This document shows, one piece after another, positions 53,739 to 60,586 of a DNA stretch of 64,000 nt. Position 1 is the stretch's first letter. Each line of letters begins with the position of its first letter. This stretch comes from Alphaproteobacteria bacterium. Lineage in GTDB: Bacteria; Pseudomonadota; Alphaproteobacteria; JAAXGF01. The notes under the pieces are model-generated. The model did not search any database, was not told the origin of the DNA, and worked only from the letters and a program-made list of their open reading frames with translations. The position numbers and the translations under genes were made by a program. The stretch covers positions 448,001 through 512,000 of the forward strand of contig CAUVXB020000001.1 of NCBI GenBank assembly GCA_963555825.3, in the 5' to 3' direction.

Positions 53739-54147
53739 TGAGAACGGCAGAGCAATAATCCCTCACTGAAGCGGCCGGTCGATCCGGCTGCGGCGGACCA
53801 AAATGGGACCGCGTATAGCCTTCTGTCAGGGTTGCTCTGACTGGAAGGCGGGGGGGATGTATCGGGTGGAGTTGTACGCACGGGTTCGGTGGGCGTGTCA
53901 TGTCGAGGGGATGAGCACCCGCGAGGCCTCGCGGGTGTTTGGTGTAGACCGCAAGACGGTCCGTAAGATGCTGTCGTTCTCGGTGCCGCCAGGGTATCGC
54001 CGAAGCGCGCCGCCGAGGCGGCCAAAGCTGGGTCCGTTCACGGGAATCATCGATCGGATCTTGGAAGACGATCGGACCAGCCACCGCAAGCAACGGCACA
54101 CTGCGAAGCGCATCTTCGACCGCCTCCGGGACGAGTACGGTTTCACG
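53739..54147 (+). mobile_element. IS21 left-end remnant (5' of istA)
   Basis: Near-identical to the reverse complement of 57833-58241. Confidence 0.9.
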
Positions 54148-55753
54148 TGTCAATGGCGGAGCAAAAAGGGACCACCTCGGCGGTGTAAGAAGGGACCGCT
54201 TGGCGGCTGCGGGCTTGTCCCCGTAGTCCACGGGAGGGCCCCGCGCGCGACGCGGCGTGCCCTCAACAGGCTGACGCGGCGGCGCGCGCGGGAGGGACCT
54301 GTGGGCCCACGGGGTCAAGCGTGGGCTGGGTGGTCGGTTCAGTTAGCAGTCGGGGTTTGACGCCTGCGGCTCTGGTTGAGCCTGTAGCTGTCACCGTTCA
54401 TCTCGAGGATGTTGACGTGGTGGGTGAGGCGATCGAGGAGCGCGCCGGTGAGGCGCTCGGAGCCGAACACCTCGGTCCATTCGTCGAAGGGCAGATTGGT
54501 GGTGACCAGGGTCGAGCCCCGCTCGTAGCGTTGGCTGAACACCTCGAACAACAGCTCGGCGCCGGTCTTCGACAGCGGCACGAAGCCGAGTTCGTCGACG
54601 ATCAGAAGCTTGTAGGTGGCGAGCTTCTTCTGGAACCTCAGCAGCTGCTTGTCATCGCGGGCCTCGATGAGTTCGTGGACCAGCGCGGCGGCGGTGATGA
54701 AGCCGACCGAGAGGCCCTTCTGGCAGGCCGCCAGGCCGAGACCGAGGGCGATGTGGGTCTTGCCGGTCCCACTGTTGCCGAGCGCGATGAGGTTCTCGCG
54801 GCGCTCGATGTACTCGCAGCGGGCCAGCTCCAGGACCAGCGCCTTGTTGAGCGAGGGGATGACCTTGAAGTCGAAGCTGTCGAGGCTCTTGACCACGGGG
54901 AAGCGCGCCGCCTTGATGCGCCGCTCGACCATGCGGCGCTCGCGGTCGATCAGCTCGAGCTCGGCGAGTCTCAACAGGTAGCGGACGTGATCGACGCCTT
55001 CCGAGGCGCACTGCCGGGCGATCTTGTCGTACTCGCGCAGGAAGGTCGGCAGCTTCAGCGTCTTGAGGTGGTGGGCGAGCAGCACTTGCGGTGTGTCGGT
55101 CATGCGCCGAGCCCCGACAGCAGGCTCATGTACGACTTGGCGGACGTCATCGCGACCCGGGCGCGCGGCAGATACGGATAGACGTCGAGGTTGAGCCTGG
55201 GCGGCCGCCGCTCGATGCGGCACAGTACCAGGTGCTTCACCGCATCAAAGCCGATTGCGCCGAGCCGCAGGGCGTCGCCGACCGCACCCTCGACCTCCTC
55301 GAGCCGGAAGGTCTCCAGTAGACGGAGCACCTGGACGTACTCGCGCTTGCCTGCCTTGCCCATACGAGCTTCGAGGAGCCGCCGCAGAGTGATGAAGGCC
55401 TCGGGCAGGTCCCAGCCCGCCAATGGCGCGGCCTGGTCGAGGGCGCCGATCTTCTGCTCGATCAAGGGCAGGTAATGCAGCGGGTCGAAGATCAGGTCCT
55501 CGCTGTCGTAGGACCGGCGGTGCCGGGCGATCACCTCGGCCCCGCAGCTGATCACCACCTCATCGACGTAGCCCCGGATGAGCACCTCACGGTGGCCGTA
55601 GGCCACGGGCACGGAATAGTCGTTGCTGCGGTAACGCACCAGCGACAGCGAACTCGCCCGTCCAGGGCGCTTATCGCAGGCATCATAGGGAGCAGGCGGC
55701 AATGGCAAGAGAACTTGACGATCCCGCTCGAGACGCTCGCCGATGGTCTCCTT

Positions 55754-57277
55754 ATATGAGGCGTTTGCTGTCAAGGTGGATTTAATCTACGCCACATGAT
55801 CGTCTCTTCCATTGGTTATGGCTTTGTATCCAGGGCGGGTCTTGCGATGAGTTCCGTGTTTCGTGCGAGTGATCGCATCACCTTATATCCGGCAGCTCCG
55901 ATCCGGCTTGCCACAATGCTGTATACATGGACCATCACAGGACGGGGATGGGACTAATCTTGTGGACGGCACCTTCGCCAAGGAGACATGCAGTCACACA
56001 TCCAACCTGCCAACAAGCGTTCCCATCGGGGAATGAAGCCCGTTAGAACGCTGAGCTGATCCGCAGTCCTATTTGACGACAGCACCCACCGGGATCAGCC
56101 CGGTTTCCAGATACCGCCAAAGCGCGATCGCCAGTTTGCGGGCCAGGGCGACGATCATGACGCGCCTGATGCGCCCCTTCTGACCTTGGGTGCGGTCATG
56201 GAACCACTGGGTCAGAGCGCTATCGGGTTGATGGCGGACCCAAAGCCATGCGGCTTCGATCATGGCAACCCGTGCCAGCCGATTGCCCGCCTTGGAGATG
56301 CCTTGGCTGCGGCGCCCGTCGCCGCTGTCATAGGCACTGGGCGTGATCCCGATATAGCTTGCCACCTGTCGGCGATTGGCGAACTGGCGATAATAGACTT
56401 CCCGTGCGAGCGTCGTGGATAAGGCCGGGCCGAGGCCCTTTAAGCGCAGCAGCTGGTGACGCTTGCTTTCCGTGGCCACACACGGTGTCGGCGCTTGATC
56501 ACGCTCACGCTCGACCTCGACGATCTGCGCTTGGACCTGGGCCAGTCTCGCGATCTCCCGCGCGATCTCGCGGCCGAGACGGTCCGGCAGGGGTCGGCCG
56601 TCTCCGGTGACCAGCGCCGCCGGTGTCAAGGTCTTGTAGCGCGCCTTGACATTGATGCCGCGAATGCCCTGACCGAATAGCAGACCCTTGATCCGGTTGA
56701 TGTGGGCGGTTCGCTCGCGGACCAATCGGTCACGTTCCCGATGAGAGCGGCGAAGGTCCTCCTCCGCGACGCTCGGAATCACCACCATGGAGCAGACATG
56801 ACGCTCGCCGCGGCACCAGGCGATCAGCGTATGAAGAATATTCTCGACATCGATGCGGTCGGTCTTCACCCGCCGCGCCCGGCGGTTGACCCGCAAGCTG
56901 GCCGGCTCCATGACCAGACACTCGATGCCGCGCTGCTCGAGGAACCGCGCCAACCAGAAGCCGTCGTAGCCGGCCTCGTAGCACAGCGTTATCGTCGGCG
57001 TTCGACCCGTCACCTTGACCACCCGGTCCCGCGCCGCGTCCAGCTTGGCCATCAGTCCTTCAGCGTCGCCGCCCTTGATCGGATGCAAGCTCGGATTGCC
57101 CCGCCCCGGAGCCTGGATCGCCAAAAGCCAGCTGTTCTTGCTCAACTCCAGTGCCGCATAAATAGCGTGTTCATTGGAGGTCGATACCGGAAACTGTGCC
57201 ATCGTGTCGCTCCTTCTGATCGAGGTTGAAATAAGCGAAGGAGCTTGAGGCTGCGTCCTTCAGCCTCATAGCATCTT
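55754..57277 (-). mobile_element. IS110 family, IS1111-type element (recombinase 56069-57202)
   Basis: ALELSK, CYEAG, KTDRID, SAYDSG..GISKAGN, ALARK; subterminal IR tatgaggc/gcctcata; core ctt at both ends; 315-bp downstream non-coding end. Confidence 0.93.
55850..56060 (-). ncRNA. Predicted bridge/seekRNA of the IS110 element
   Basis: Paired guide segments match the target junction (gtctc-ctt-gtgg) and the donor circle junction (agcat-ctt-atat); RNA ends approximate. Confidence 0.75.
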
Positions 57278-59425
57278 GTGGCCCCGCAGCCGCGCCGCCT
57301 GGCGCCGGCGGCACTGTTCGGCGAGAGCATCGTTGAGGGCCGCGAAGCTCTCGGCACGCGGGACGGGGACCAGGAAGTTCCGCCGGATGAAGCCGACCAG
57401 TCCCTCGACCTTGCCCTTGTCGTTGCCCTTGCCCGGCCGGCCGAACCTGTCCTCGAACAGATAGTGGGACTGAAGCTCCGTGAAGACGCGCGTTCGCTGC
57501 CGCTTCCCATCGCCCAGGATCCGGGCAACCGCCAGCTTGGTGTTGTCGTACAGGATGGATCGGGGGACGCCGCCGAAGAAGGCAAACGCCGCGTTGTGGC
57601 CATCGCAGAATGCTTCGGTCGTCTCCGCCGGATAGGCCGCAACAAAGCAACCATCACTGTGGGGAAGGTCGAAGGCAAGGAAGTGGATCTTCCGTAACGC
57701 GCCGCCGATCACCGCCATCGCTTCGCCGAAGTCCGCCTGGGCGTGACCGGGGGAATGGGAGAGTGGCACGAACACCTCACGCGACCGAAGCCCCTGCTCA
57801 CGAACGTAGTCCTTCACGATGGTGTAGCCGCCCGTGAAACCGTACTCGTCCCGGAGGCGGTCGAAGATGCGCTTCGCAGTGTGCCGTTGCTTGCGGTGGC
57901 TGGTCCGATCGTCTTCCAAGATCCGATCGATGATTCCCGTGAACGGACCCAGCTTTGGCCGCCTCGGCGGCGCGCTTCGGCGATACCCTGGCGGCACCGA
58001 GAACGACAGCATCTTACGGACCGTCTTGCGGTCTACACCAAACACCCGCGAGGCCTCGCGGGTGCTCATCCCCTCGACATGACACGCCCGCCGAACCCGT
58101 GCGTACAACTCCACCCGATACATCCCCCCCGCCTTCCAGTCAGAGCAACCCTGACAGAAGGCTATACGCGGTCCCATTTTGGTCCGCCGCAGCCGGATCG
58201 ACCGGCCGCTTCAGTGGGGGATTATTGCTCTGCCGTTCTCAACCGACTGACAACATGCGATAATTCGTAGCCCCCCGGCGCACATTCCCTGTTATTTTGC
58301 ATTATTTCCCTGTAAATCGGGGGTTATCAGGGAATTTGGCCGGAGACGGGTTCGCTCCAGACTGGCTCCACCACCAATTATATCAATGGGTTATGTGAAT
58401 AATCCAAGAGATCAAAATTTATCAGGTAGCAAATAGGTAGCAGTAGCTTGGGTATCGCGGTGTCGGCGAACCAGTCCCTTGGGTCGGTGAAAACGTAGTA
58501 AAACGATGCTGTAGCCGGGAACTGAGGAACCGGTGACATCCGATGATCCGGTCGCGATCCGATATGACCAGAAAGGGTGCGCAAATCGTCCCTGTCCCAT
58601 CGCCCAACTGACGGGGAATGGCGTCTAGGGAAGGAGACTCGGTATGGGTTGTGTCGGTACGAACGGAGCCATACCAGGGACTCGGTGACATCGCGGCGTG
58701 CGAGACCAATCAAGCCCCTTACGATGTCAATCGGGTCGAAGCCAAATCACATTGTGATGGCCTCCGAGGCTCTCGAAGGTCGGACATCACTGATCCAGCA
58801 TCGCTCGGCACGGGGAAAACCTTGCCGGGTGATACGAGGCCCATGGGTGGTGGTGCCGGCGCAAATCGGGGGTCATGTCGTCGGCGCGCGCCACGTTCAA
58901 TCATTCGTCCACGAAACTGTGGAGCGTGCATGGTGGTCGATTTGGGCCGCCGCACCCGCGTGTGTCGACGAGCCGCCTGCCTGCCCAAATCGCGGTCCAT
59001 GACAAACCACGTGCGTCGATCCGACCGTGTGAATTTGCAACGGATAGTCAAAGGCCGGCCCCATAAAGCCAGTCCGCTCCCAATCTACATGGTCGTGATG
59101 TCGGGCGTCGGCTAGCCGGCCGCGCTGTTCCGCCGCCACCTCTCGGGCCACCACTCCAAGTTGTGCACGAGTTCCGGGCAAAAAGTCCGGCCAAACACGT
59201 GCGGTCGTTTACCCGCTTCGCAAATTTTCAGAAAAATAGCGCTCTCTACGCCTTGGTCGGCAGTTTTGCAAGTCAGCGGAATTGCCGCCCCCTCCGCGCA
59301 CTACGCAACCGAGTGTGGAGAAATCGATGCTCGCCCGTCGAAATTTTCCGAATTAACCTGTATTTTCTCACGCTGAGCCATTGCTGCAGGAAAGTATGCA
59401 AGCTGATATCATTACCATCAATTAA

Positions 59426-60586
59426 TACCAACGGCACTAATTATTGACCTGAAATCGCCCAATCTCTCATTCCGATGGACATGATCGTCTCGGGCTGGTC
59501 GATTAGTTTGTTCCAGGCTTGGCAACCGGCCTCGATGATGGCGTCGTAATCTTCGAAGACGCGGTTAGAGAGCCAATTCTGGCGGAGGTATTGCCAGATG
59601 TTCTCGACCGGGTTCAGCTCGGGCGAGCGCGATGGCAGCAGGATGATGGTGAGGTTCTTGGGGACCTTGAGCTGGTCGGTGCTGTGCCACCCGGCGCGGT
59701 CCATCAGGACGACGCCATGGGCCTTGGCGGCGACGTTGCAGCTGATCTCGTCGAGATGCATCTGCATGGCGGCTGTGTTGGCGAAGGGGAGCATGAGAGC
59801 GGCACCCTTGGCTCCCATGGGACAGATTGCGCCAAAGAGGTAGGCGTTCGTGTAGCGCTGATCGGCGGGCAGGCGTGGCCTTGTTCCCTTCTTCGCCCAA
59901 ATGCGCACACGCCCGTTCTTCTGTCCCAGCCTGGCCTCGTCTTGGAACCAGATCTCGACCCGCTTGGTCTTGGGCAGACCGGCTAGGTGGGCAGCGAGCG
60001 TGCGGGGGAAGTTTTTTTGAACGCCTCGATCACCCGCTGGTCCTGCTTGGGGTGCTGCGGCCGGGCGCTGATGTGGGAGAAGGACAGCGCGACGAGAAGG
60101 TCGGAGATCGCCCGCTCGCTATAGATCACGCCAAAGCGTTCTTCGATCACCCGTTTCAGGTCAACCCGCCGCCAGCGAACCACACCGTCAATCTCTGGAT
60201 CGGGGCCCGTTTCGACGATCACCGACAGTTCGCCCATCTGCTCGTCGGTCAAGAGCCGGGGGCGGCCCGCACCGGGACGGTTCTTCAAGCCGTCTGCCCC
60301 TTCATCGTTGAAGCGGTGCGCCCAGTCTCTCAGCGTCTGGCGATCCATGCCGCCGACCTTAGCGGCTTCCGCTCGGCTCATGCCGTCGTAAACCGCCGCC
60401 AAGGCCAAAAGCCGGCGAACTTGGCGGGGATCGCGACTGTGCTTGGCCAAACACCGGAGCTCAATGCTGTCGTAGTCGTCCCGAAGAGCAATGCATACTG
60501 ACATGGCGAATCTCCTTCGCCAGCCTTGAATCACATCCAGCCCAAAAAGGGAATCCCTTGCGAGTCAGAATTTTGCGCCGTTGGTA
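59426..60586 (-). mobile_element. IS630 family element (orfA 59983-60504, orfB to 59441, -1 frameshift)
   Basis: TA-CCAACGGC / GCCGTTGG-TA ends, A7C slippery site at ~60011-60018, WFQDEAR, MDRAGWH, SPELNPVE. Confidence 0.93.

What the first reader, a model, noticed from the sequence alone, without database searches (positions are those of the whole stretch)
55746..57283. IS1111-type element with a readable bridge RNA programmed against IS21 istA
Seen: the empty site is gtctc-ctt-gtgg (+ strand). In the downstream non-coding end, cttgtgg (55959-55965) and caaggagac (55979-55987) flank a small ggc..gcc hairpin inside a gact/agtc stem, so the minus-strand RNA reads GUCUCCUUG..CCACAAG and covers both target halves. 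A second loop has cttatat (55882-55888) and atgct (55916-55920), matching the circle junction agcat-ctt-atat in the same layout. Known: IS110/IS1111 recombinases use bridge/seekRNAs, encoded downstream of the gene in IS1111. Inference: this is an RNA-guided parasite of another IS, from the ALELSK (first D replaced by E) subgroup, and a candidate programmable recombinase.
Basis: partly seen in the sequence, partly recalled or inferred. Interest (0 to 1): 0.78.

Follow-up and report, generated by a model that had tools for sequence, protein, structure and literature searches.

The report
RNA-guided insertion sequence targeting IS21
This is a small mobile element of the IS110/IS1111 kind whose own guide RNA region spells out the 12-base site in another mobile element (IS21) where it inserts, so it is a well-supported new example of a known system rather than a new kind.

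Summary
The element is 1524 bp (window 55754-57277, minus strand) and interrupts IS21 istA at GTCTC-CTT-GTGG. It encodes a 377-aa IS110-family recombinase, with a 72-nt left end and a 315-nt non-coding right end.

In the right end, GUCUCCUUG and CCACAAG flank a GGC/GCC hairpin inside a GACU/AGUC stem and cover both target halves. AGCAU and AUAUAAG cover the circle junction.

The genome holds 11 full-length copies. Seven sit in the identical istA site. Four sit elsewhere, at sites matching 12/12 or 11/12 of the target. All 69 unoccupied perfect 12-mers lie in IS21.

Across 80 homologous loci the two target guides covary with the flanking host DNA: 96/110 and 114/171 positions, against 36 and 56 under permutation, 0 of 10,000 permutations as high. 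Relatives 83-89% identical aim at a REP-like palindrome, so this copy was retargeted by a few guide bases.

E19 replaces the first catalytic Asp throughout the clade. The predicted fold matches IS621 and ISCro4 bridge recombinases.

The RNA itself, its ends and its activity are inferred, not shown. IS110 elements that target other IS elements are already known (ISEc21, IS4321). Verdict: new member of a known kind; moderate interest.

The parts
55746..55753 (+). Target half GTCTC plus the CTT core copy: the istA flank on the right-end side of the element.
   Evidence: Identical in 8 occupied and 69 empty IS21 sites.
55754..57277 (-). The insertion sequence, 1524 bp counting one CTT core.
   Evidence: Empty-site comparison. 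Contig joints skip 1524 nt. 11 full-length copies at 99.8% identity or more.
55755..55762 (.). Subterminal inverted repeat, right-end arm (TATGAGGC on the + strand), 1 nt from the core.
   Evidence: Read. Its reverse complement is at 57263-57270.
55769..55774 (-). Outward-facing -35-like TTGACA, 15 nt plus the core from the element's end. It would pair with the left end to form a promoter only in the excised circle (inferred).
   Evidence: TTGAC sits at this exact offset in 30 of 37 distinct right-end tails of homologs. No sigma-70-like promoter is found in the linear copy.
55829..56011 (-). Predicted bridge/seekRNA, about 183 nt, closed by stem P0 (GGCAGGUU with GACCCGCC). The RNA ends are not determined.
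   Evidence: RNAalifold on 13 and on 22 homologs. Pair counts.
55946..56003 (-). Target-binding module. P1 is GGAUG/CAUCC, P2 is GACU/AGUC, with an internal loop holding the two guides around hairpin P3 (55968-55979).
   Evidence: P2 pairs 22/81 (AU 13, GC 8) and 24/79 (UA 13, CG 9) change on both sides. P1 and P3 are conserved.
55979..55991 (-). 5' target guide GCAU-GUCUCCUU-G. GUCUCCUUG is complementary to the top strand (element orientation) of core plus right flank.
   Evidence: Covaries with the right flank in homologs: 114/171 against 55.9 +/- 7.1.
55959..55965 (-). 3' target guide CCACAAG, identical to the top strand of left flank plus core, so it pairs with the bottom strand.
   Evidence: Covaries with the left flank: 96/110 against 36.4 +/- 5.5.
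55915..55920 (-). 5' donor guide AGCAU(U), complementary to the left-end terminus (G)ATGCT.
   Evidence: Its middle base covaries with left-end position 3 (G-C, C-G, T-A), with exceptions.
55882..55888 (-). 3' donor guide AUAUAAG, identical to the right-end terminus plus core.
   Evidence: Both the guide and the right-end terminus are conserved in nearly all homologs, so there is no covariation test.
55889..55913 (-). Hairpin P5 between the two donor guides.
   Evidence: pairs 138/162, 140/161 and 142/159 change on both sides in 8-10 of 22 sequences.
55865..55876 (-). Hairpin P6 (GCGA/UCGC), 3' of the donor guides.
   Evidence: pair 184/195 is AU in 11 and GC in 10 sequences.
56069..57202 (-). 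Recombinase gene, 377 aa. Proposed catalytic residues are E19, E76, D115, D118 and S293-G294.
   Evidence: Pfam PF01548 and PF02371. Invariant columns. hhalign. AlphaFold2 model, pLDDT 84.2. Foldseek.
57203..57274 (-). Left end, 72 nt, with terminus AGCAT (57270-57274 on the + strand) and the subterminal repeat arm GCCTCATA (57263-57270).
57275..57281 (+). Second CTT core copy plus target half GTGG (istA flank).
57266..58177 (-). N-terminal fragment of the interrupted IS21 istA, read through into the element to a stop (303-aa ORF).
   Evidence: rve domain.
55100..55774 (-). C-terminal fragment of istA (the ORF starts inside the element). istB follows at 54339-55223.
   Evidence: Mu-transpos_C_2, IstB_IS21.

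Best explanation
This is an active IS110-family insertion sequence with IS1111-type architecture: a short left end, an 8-bp subterminal inverted repeat, and a guide RNA region downstream of the gene.

Proposed mechanism (inferred by homology with IS621, ISEc11 and ISEc21). The element excises as a circle whose junction reads ...CATAT-AAG-ATGCT.... Joining the ends places a conserved TTGACA of the right end upstream of the left end and switches on the recombinase.

The 377-aa recombinase has a RuvC-like domain with E19-E76-D115-D118 and a Tnp domain with S293. It binds a structured RNA of about 180 nt made from the right end. One internal loop of that RNA pairs with both strands of the target around the core: GUCUCCUUG with the top strand and CCACAAG with the bottom strand of CCAC-AAG-GAGAC. 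A second, multi-branched region pairs with the element's own joined ends (AGCAU(U) and AUAUAAG). Strand exchange in the shared core inserts the element without a target duplication.

The specified 12-bp site lies in the coding region of IS21 istA, between the integrase core and the C-terminal domain. The element therefore lands in, and knocks out, copies of an IS21 that has expanded to about 79 copies in this genome.

What is shown: the boundaries, the empty site, the copy distribution, the guide-target and guide-donor matches and their covariation, the protein family and the fold. What is inferred: that the guides act as RNA, the circle and its promoter, and the chemistry.
For: 1. Pfam DEDD_Tnp_IS110 and Transposase_20 both match.

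2. The AlphaFold2 model has pLDDT 84.2. Its 10 best PDB matches are all ISCro4/IS621 bridge RNA complexes, E about 1e-11, TM 0.53-0.64 over about 370 columns.

3. There are 11 full-length copies at 99.8% identity or more. Seven have identical istA flanks. Four sit in unrelated DNA at GTCTCCTT...CTTGTGG (12/12), CTTGTGA (twice) and CTTATGG (11/12).

4. 69 of 69 unoccupied perfect 12-mers lie in IS21. The only perfect 12-mer outside IS21 is occupied. About 0.75 such sites are expected from base composition.

5. Covariation across homologs. Taking one flank per distinct guide, the 3' guide matches the left flank at 96 of 110 positions (22 guides; permutation mean 36.4, sd 5.5; 0 of 10,000 as high). 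The 5' guide matches the right flank at 114 of 171 positions (19 guides; 55.9, sd 7.1; 0 of 10,000).

6. Relatives with 83-89% identical recombinases carry GUCCGCUU / CC(A/C/G)AAAG and sit in ATGTCCGCTTT...AAAG|CGGACAT palindromes.

7. Donor guide against left end: 22 of 42 rows are perfectly complementary, including the switch ATGCT/AGCAU (13 rows) to ATCCT/AGGAU (9 rows), plus ATTCT/GGAAU (1 row).

8. Compensatory pairs occur in stems P2, P5 and P6: 10 of 25 RNAalifold pairs.

9. The guide order and the downstream location match the IS1111 description in PMC11187229 (sections 6 and 9) and PMC11208160 (section 12).
Against: No RNA was observed. Rfam has no matching family. The whole non-coding end does not fold better than shuffles (z = 0.91). 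The runs laid were contigs, which cannot show an RNA's ends, strand or level, and no circle junction was reported in them.

The donor 5' guide is only 5 nt (6 with a G-U pair). It is imperfect in 20 of 42 rows: 11 rows match 4/5 and 9 rows match 3/5. These include L043, L046 and L048, where ATGCT faces AGGAU.

The long-range stem that would make the donor region a multiloop is only 80% paired and barely covaries within the close subgroup. RNAalifold prefers a different pairing there.

Four bases of the 5' guide (GCAU) do not match IS21. They match 2-3 of 4 bases at the other sites, so the guide is not perfectly tuned to IS21.

The regular-expression extraction of guides and flanks failed or was out of register in several loci. 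For example L034, L042 and L070 scored 1-2 of 9. These were kept in the counts.

The transposase is longer than the IS1111 range and only about 24% identical to named IS1111 members.
Confidence: 0.9

Rival explanations
1. The several IS21-embedded copies are not repeated RNA-guided hits. They descend from one insertion, after which the interrupted IS21 was copied by IstA/IstB supplied in trans from the many intact IS21 copies. Targeting may still be RNA-guided, but the copy count would overstate its frequency.
For: IS21 copies are nearly identical. Over 1750 nt around the site, 46 empty and 6 occupied copies share one haplotype, so independent origin of the occupied copies cannot be shown. The element sits at the same base and in the same orientation in all of them.
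Against: Same base and same orientation are equally what a guide would give. One occupied copy shares a variant haplotype with 2 empty copies, and another has 4 private differences. The 4 insertions outside IS21, at 11-12 of 12 matching sites, cannot be explained this way.
Confidence: 0.3
2. The target-like and end-like segments act at the DNA level, for example as protein-binding sites or through single-stranded DNA pairing as in IS200/IS605, and no guide RNA is involved.
For: No transcript was demonstrated here. The segments are short.
Against: The segments sit in loops of a stem-loop architecture whose stems keep pairing through compensatory changes. The fold is that of recombinases solved with bridge RNA. 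In five related elements the non-coding region was shown to give an RNA that co-purifies with the transposase and is needed for transposition (PMC11187229, abstract and sections 9 and 12 read).
Confidence: 0.04
3. The matches are chance, or a relic of captured target DNA, with no function.
For: Individual matches are short: 9, 7, 7 and 5 nt.
Against: 36 of 20,000 shuffles met even a lenient criterion. The two halves are swapped and on opposite strands, which a captured target would not be. Guides change together with flanks in about 20 lineages.
Confidence: 0.01

Closest known systems
IS1111-group elements with a downstream seekRNA/bridge RNA: ISEc11, ISPa11, ISKpn4 (Siddiquee et al. 2024, PMC11187229) and the predicted right-end bridge RNAs of Durrant et al. 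2024 (PMC11208160)
   Same: The non-coding RNA region is downstream of the gene, in a long right end (315 nt against a 72-nt left end). There is a subterminal inverted repeat (8 bp). The top-strand-complementary segment lies 5' of the bottom-strand one. The two target matches overlap at the core. Donor-matching bases lie between hairpins rather than in a simple internal loop. Close relatives target REP-like palindromes, as ISPa11 does.
   Different: The recombinase is 377 aa (IS1111 family: 330-350). It is only about 24-25% identical to IS4321 and IS5708. The first catalytic residue is Glu, not Asp. The target is an IS21 gene. Transposase phylogeny against ISfinder references was not done.
IS621 and ISCro4 bridge recombinases (IS110 group; PDB 8wt6 and 9t56)
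   Same: Same overall fold. Same C-terminal Tnp domain with the SG motif. Same two-module logic of a target loop and a donor loop, each reading both strands around a short core.
   Different: In IS621 the bridge RNA is upstream, in the left end, and the guide order is reversed. The N-terminal domains are not alignable by HMMER. IS621 has Asp at the first catalytic position (this last point is recalled, not from a call).
ISEc21 (IS110 family) and IS4321/IS5075 (IS1111 family): IS110-family elements that insert into other mobile elements
   Same: Sequence-specific insertion into a conserved site of another transposable element. ISEc21 inserts into the transposase gene of IS3-family elements (PMC11187229, section 12). 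IS4321/IS5075 insert into the terminal repeats of Tn21-family transposons (title of reference 10 in PMC11208160).
   Different: The host element here is IS21, at a site between the integrase core and the C-terminal domain of IstA. My two literature searches found no report of an IS110-family element aimed at IS21 istA (2 papers, both unrelated by title and abstract).
ISPpu9 of Pseudomonas putida (PMC12288879; search listing and abstract only)
   Same: An IS110-family element with a small RNA gene downstream of the transposase gene, several genomic copies, and circular intermediates.
   Different: ISPpu9 sits in REP sequences. I did not compare sequences.

Membership tests
IS110 family (DEDD transposases) | N-terminal DEDD_Tnp_IS110 (PF01548) plus C-terminal Transposase_20 (PF02371) domains | tested here: met
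   PF02371 at 60.9 bits (cut-off 21.3) and PF01548 at 38.7 bits (cut-off 29). The PF01548 match starts only at profile position 42.
IS110 family (DEDD transposases) | Catalytic D-E-D-D tetrad | tested here: not met
   The first position is Glu (E19), invariant in 38 of 38 relatives. It aligns to the GxD Asp of 9 canonical IS110 proteins of the same genome (hhalign probability 99.7%) and of IS4321, IS5708 and ISPsy16. E76 and D118 are invariant and D115 is nearly invariant. This is a conservative variant (E-E-D-D), not a loss.
IS110 family (DEDD transposases) | Conserved G..P....SG motif in the C-terminal domain | tested here: met
   GITPSAYDSG, with S293-G294 invariant.
IS110 family (DEDD transposases) | Site-specific insertion without target duplication, with a short core shared by donor and target | tested here: met
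   The empty site is GTCTC-CTT-GTGG. Occupied sites carry one CTT at each junction. The joint has 3 ambiguous bases.
IS1111 group | Subterminal inverted repeats of 7-17 bp | tested here: met
   TATGAGGC (55755-55762) and GCCTCATA (57263-57270): 8 bp, set 1 and 4 nt in from the core.
IS1111 group | Longer non-coding region and guide RNA downstream of the transposase gene | tested here: met
   Right end 315 nt, left end 72 nt. The guide segments are in the right end.
IS1111 group | Top-strand-complementary segment 5' of the bottom-strand-complementary segment in the RNA | tested here: met
   GUCUCCUUG (55987-55979) precedes CCACAAG (55965-55959) in the minus-strand RNA, with the target written in the orientation of the transposase gene (criterion from PMC11187229, sections 9 and 12).
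IS1111 group | Transposase related over its full length to IS1111-type transposases and of 330-350 aa | tested here: inconclusive
   The protein is 377 aa. tblastn gives 25.5% to IS5708 over 86% of the query and 23-24% to IS4321/IS5075 over 81%. IS621 aligns only over the C-terminal half. No tree with ISfinder references was made.
Bridge RNA / seekRNA | A loop whose two arms pair with opposite strands of the target on either side of the core, reprogrammed in relatives with other targets | tested here: met
Bridge RNA / seekRNA | A second region whose two arms pair with the joined ends of the element | tested here: inconclusive
   There is a 7-nt and a 5(6)-nt match. The 5' arm is perfectly complementary in 22 of 42 rows, with three-state covariation but 20 imperfect rows. 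The enclosing structure is not settled.
Bridge RNA / seekRNA | The RNA is made, binds the recombinase and is required for recombination | not testable with these tools
   Only contigs of RNA libraries were available. No Rfam family matched.

The most novel reading that the evidence does not exclude
The element belongs to a widespread, mostly alphaproteobacterial branch of bridge recombinases in which the first catalytic aspartate is always glutamate (E-E-D-D). The branch is demonstrably active in vivo and can be retargeted by a handful of guide substitutions. Here it moved from REP-like palindromes, which this genome lacks, to a 12-bp site in IS21. In doing so it became a hyperparasite that disables about a tenth of an IS21 expansion. 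If E19 is truly the metal-binding residue, this branch is a naturally distinct active-site variant and a source of new programmable recombinases.
Probability: 0.5. Interest if true: 0.45.

Novelty: new member of a known kind. Interest (0 to 1): 0.35.

Why it matters
It gives a clean natural example in which the guide, the target, the donor and many genomic insertions can all be read from sequence alone.

It shows natural reprogramming between close relatives. Recombinases 83-89% identical have different guides and different targets.

It adds an IS21 gene to the list of mobile elements that IS110-family elements parasitise.

It marks a Glu-for-Asp clade of bridge recombinases that may be worth testing as genome-editing enzymes.

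It does not change the understanding of how these systems work.

Tried and rejected
Single-sequence folding of the 315-nt right end was uninformative: -92.1 kcal/mol, z = 0.91 against shuffles.

The Rfam scan of 55500-57500 at E up to 1 gave 0 matches.

The promoter scan of the linear copy found 0 sigma-70-like sites and one terminator-like site, which is no more than the shuffles give.

Finding the right end from the reverse complement of the left subterminal repeat failed in most homologs. The conserved CATATAA(G/A) terminus was used instead.

A HMMER profile of the clade against PDB aligned only the C-terminal half to IS621 and ISCro4. E19 could therefore not be mapped onto a solved structure residue by residue.

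Haplotyping of IS21 copies, to test whether the insertions are independent, was inconclusive because the copies are nearly identical. The first attempt used flanks that ran beyond IS21.

RNA-library contigs. In run X18 contigs were laid on 55700-56146 and 57275-57330, and none on 56195-57239. In X11, X16 and X17 contigs covered most of the stretch. Contigs cannot show transcription, ends or level, and DNA can be present in such libraries, so I draw nothing from cover or its absence. No circle-junction joint was listed.

Searching 40 relatives' genomes with the element's DNA found only diverged relatives (66-88% identity, mostly at contig ends) in 7 of 40, and no second genome with the IS21-directed guide.

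In L038 and L051 there are two tandem target-loop modules. I could not find L038's right end, so whether both modules are used is open.

I did not build a covariance model or a transposase tree with ISfinder references. No supplementary files of papers were seen. The supplementary phylogeny and target logos of PMC11187229 and Supplementary Table 5 of PMC11208160 may already list members of this clade.

Full report
**What is there.** The window region 55100-58177 holds an IS21 element on the minus strand. Its istA is split into an N-terminal fragment (57266-58177, rve domain) and a C-terminal fragment (55100-55774, Mu-transposase C-terminal domain), followed by istB (54339-55223). Between the fragments lies a 377-aa ORF (56069-57202, minus strand) with both IS110-family Pfam domains.

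**Boundaries and empty site.** Of 79 places in the genome that carry the 20-nt istA flank, 69 continue directly with GTCTCCTTGTGG and the rest of istA. Eight carry an insert: six of 1524 nt, one of 1526 nt and one of 1468 nt. Two lack the far flank within 1.7 kb. The element is therefore 55754-57277, 1524 bp counting one of the two CTT copies. Contigs from three RNA-library runs independently join 55750 to 57275, skipping 1524 nt with 3 ambiguous bases.

**The observation.** Read as minus-strand RNA, the region is as follows. Stem P1 is GGAUG and stem P2 is GACU. Then comes the 5' guide GCAU-GUCUCCUU-G, hairpin P3 (GGC GAAGGU GCC) and the 3' guide CCACAAG. The return strands are AGUC and CAUCC. 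Written in the orientation of the recombinase gene, the target is CCAC-AAG-GAGAC. The first guide is complementary to the top strand of core plus right half, and the second is identical to the top strand of left half plus core. The two overlap at the core. Further 3' lie AGCAU(U), a conserved hairpin, and AUAUAAG. These match the joined ends ...CATAT-AAG-ATGCT... in the same layout. A lenient shuffle test gave 36 of 20,000. The 5-nt donor match is not significant on its own.

**Other copies in the genome.** BLAST finds 11 full-length copies at 99.8% identity or more, two long truncated copies and several fragments. Seven full copies have identical istA flanks. Four lie in unrelated DNA. Their junctions read GTCTCCTT...CTTGTGG (12 of 12)...CTTGTGA (twice) and ...CTTATGG (11 of 12 each). 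All 69 unoccupied perfect 12-mers in the 6.04-Mb genome lie in IS21. Base composition predicts about 0.75 such sites by chance.

One caveat applies. The IS21 copies are so alike that I cannot tell repeated insertion from trans-mobilisation of one interrupted IS21. Over 1750 nt, 46 empty and 6 occupied copies share one haplotype. The four non-IS21 sites do not have this problem.

**Homologs and covariation.** A scan of one genome per species returned 80 loci encoding relatives 49-89% identical, mostly from alphaproteobacterial genomes. I extracted guides and flanks by fixed anchors. Of 81 rows including the window, both a 3' guide and a left flank were obtained in 52. Both a 5' guide and a right flank were obtained in 30.

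Taking one flank per distinct guide, the five variable bases of the 3' guide equal the left flank at 96 of 110 positions (22 guides). Permuted pairings give 36.4 +/- 5.5, and 0 of 10,000 permutations reach the observed value. The nine bases of the 5' guide beyond the core complement the right flank at 114 of 171 positions (19 guides), against 55.9 +/- 7.1 and again 0 of 10,000. Rows where the anchors were out of register (L034, L042 and L070, scoring 1-2 of 9) were left in. Because the flanks are host DNA unrelated to the element, relatedness among the elements does not inflate this test.

**Natural retargeting.** The closest relatives (L022-L030, 76-89% identical) carry GUCCGCUU and CC(A/C/G)AAAG. 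They sit in the 3' arm of ATGTCCGCTTT...AAAG|CGGACAT palindromes, with up to 12 of 12 complementarity on the 5' guide. Related elements in genomes of the same bacterial family carry the same REP-type guide or flank (L133 shows both guides; in L124 only the flank was seen). The window's genome has only 6 such REP-type sites, against about 2 expected by chance. The IS21-directed guide thus differs from the REP-directed one by about 3-4 bases and gives access to about 79 sites. The GCAU part of the 5' guide is inherited from the REP type. It matches IS21 at only 1 of 4 bases but matches three of the four other sites at 2-3 of 4 bases.

**Donor side.** The right-end terminus CATATAA(G/A) and the 3' donor guide AUAUAAG are both nearly constant, so they give no covariation test. 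The 5' donor guide tracks the third base of the left end. ATGCT pairs with AGCAU in 13 rows, ATCCT with AGGAU in 9 rows and ATTCT with GGAAU in 1 row. In all, 22 of 42 rows are perfectly complementary, 11 match 4 of 5 and 9 match 3 of 5. I rate the donor loop as probable, not proven.

**RNA structure.** RNAalifold on 22 diverse homologs predicts P1/P2, P3, P5 and P6. Ten of its 25 pairs keep pairing through changes on both sides. Examples are P2 (AU 13, GC 8), three P5 pairs and one P6 pair. Within the close subgroup the sequences are too similar to test further. With my hand-drawn structure, 92.8% of cells pair, against 34-43% when the partners are slid. That comparison is biased, because the structure was derived from the window sequence, and the covariation measures do not exceed shuffles. 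The closing stem P0 is found by RNAalifold. The long-range stem that would make the donor region a three-way junction is only 80% paired, and RNAalifold prefers another pairing. Durrant et al. note that in many IS1111 orthologues the donor-binding bases lie in a multiloop (PMC11208160, section 12 read).

**The protein.** In 38 aligned relatives E19, E76, D118 and S293-G294 are invariant and D115 is nearly so. A profile-profile alignment with nine canonical IS110-family proteins of the same genome (probability 99.7%) puts E19 on the Asp of their GxD motif and E76 on their Glu. A multiple alignment shows Asp at this position in IS4321, IS5708 and ISPsy16, and Glu in a 37.5%-identical Bradyrhizobium relative. 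In the AlphaFold2 model (pLDDT 84.2) E19 ends strand 1 and E76 ends strand 4. By recall, not from a call, this is where an RNase H-like fold places these residues. The ten best PDB matches are all ISCro4 or IS621 synaptic complexes. A text search for IS110 together with EEDD found no paper. I did not search other wordings, and I saw no supplements.

**Expression logic (inferred).** No sigma-70-like promoter precedes the gene in the linear copy. A TTGAC(A) box lies at a fixed distance from the core (starting 21 nt before it) in 30 of 37 distinct right-end tails. It is one base off in 5 more, five bases off in 1, and absent in 1. After circularisation it would stand 17 nt from the conserved left-end terminus. 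This matches the junction promoter reported for ISEc21 and, as the text implies, ISEc11 (PMC11187229, section 12).

**Comparison and verdict.** By architecture this is an IS1111-type member of the IS110 family with a bridge/seekRNA. By transposase length and identity its place among named IS1111 elements is open. Elements of this family that insert into other mobile elements are known: ISEc21 into IS3-family transposase genes, and IS4321/IS5075 into Tn21 ends. The IS21 target is a new instance, not a new principle. My search for IS110, IS21, istA and 'target site' found two papers, both unrelated by title and abstract.

The finding is correct and unusually complete for a reading made without tools. 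I class it as a new member of a known kind, with moderate interest that rests on the natural retargeting and the Glu-for-Asp clade.

Noticed in passing
L038:2622-2960 and L051:2605-2900 (downstream of the recombinase gene): Two relatives carry two tandem target-loop-like modules before one donor module. In L051 both flanks match the guides of the second module. In L038 the left flank (CGTGGAG) matches the 3' guide of the first module, while the second module keeps the L051-type guide. This could be a route to new or dual targets. L038's right end could not be found.
   Followed up: partly
G000:C1:1730267 and G000:C1:1251402 (outside the window): Another mobile element, whose end reads (G)TAAGCGTTCGTTCAGG, abuts a 5-nt stub of this element in one istA site and truncates a diverged copy of this element at another site. 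In the second case the break falls exactly inside the 5' target guide (after CAAGG). From memory, the end resembles IS66-family termini.
   Followed up: no
window 53803-54360 (+): A second, truncated IS21 istA 5' fragment in the opposite orientation lies next to the end of istB. Its first ~115 residues are near-identical to IstA (one difference seen), after which the reading frame diverges.
   Followed up: no
whole genome G000: The genome is very rich in insertion sequences. About 79 near-identical IS21 copies are present, 52 of them identical over 1750 nt. There are 46 matches to the IS110 catalytic domain, from several distinct families. Runs labelled sponge metagenome hold the element.
   Followed up: partly
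window 59441-60534 (-): Two adjacent ORFs on the minus strand, of 183 and 155 aa. From their sequences alone they look like the two halves of another transposase gene. No family search was run.
   Followed up: no
L039-L053 (for example L040:3020-3040): In one subclade the right junction reads CATATAA-A, while the left junction still reads AG|AT. The two core copies would then differ at one base. The exact core (AG, AA or AAG) is therefore not settled for the family.
   Followed up: partly
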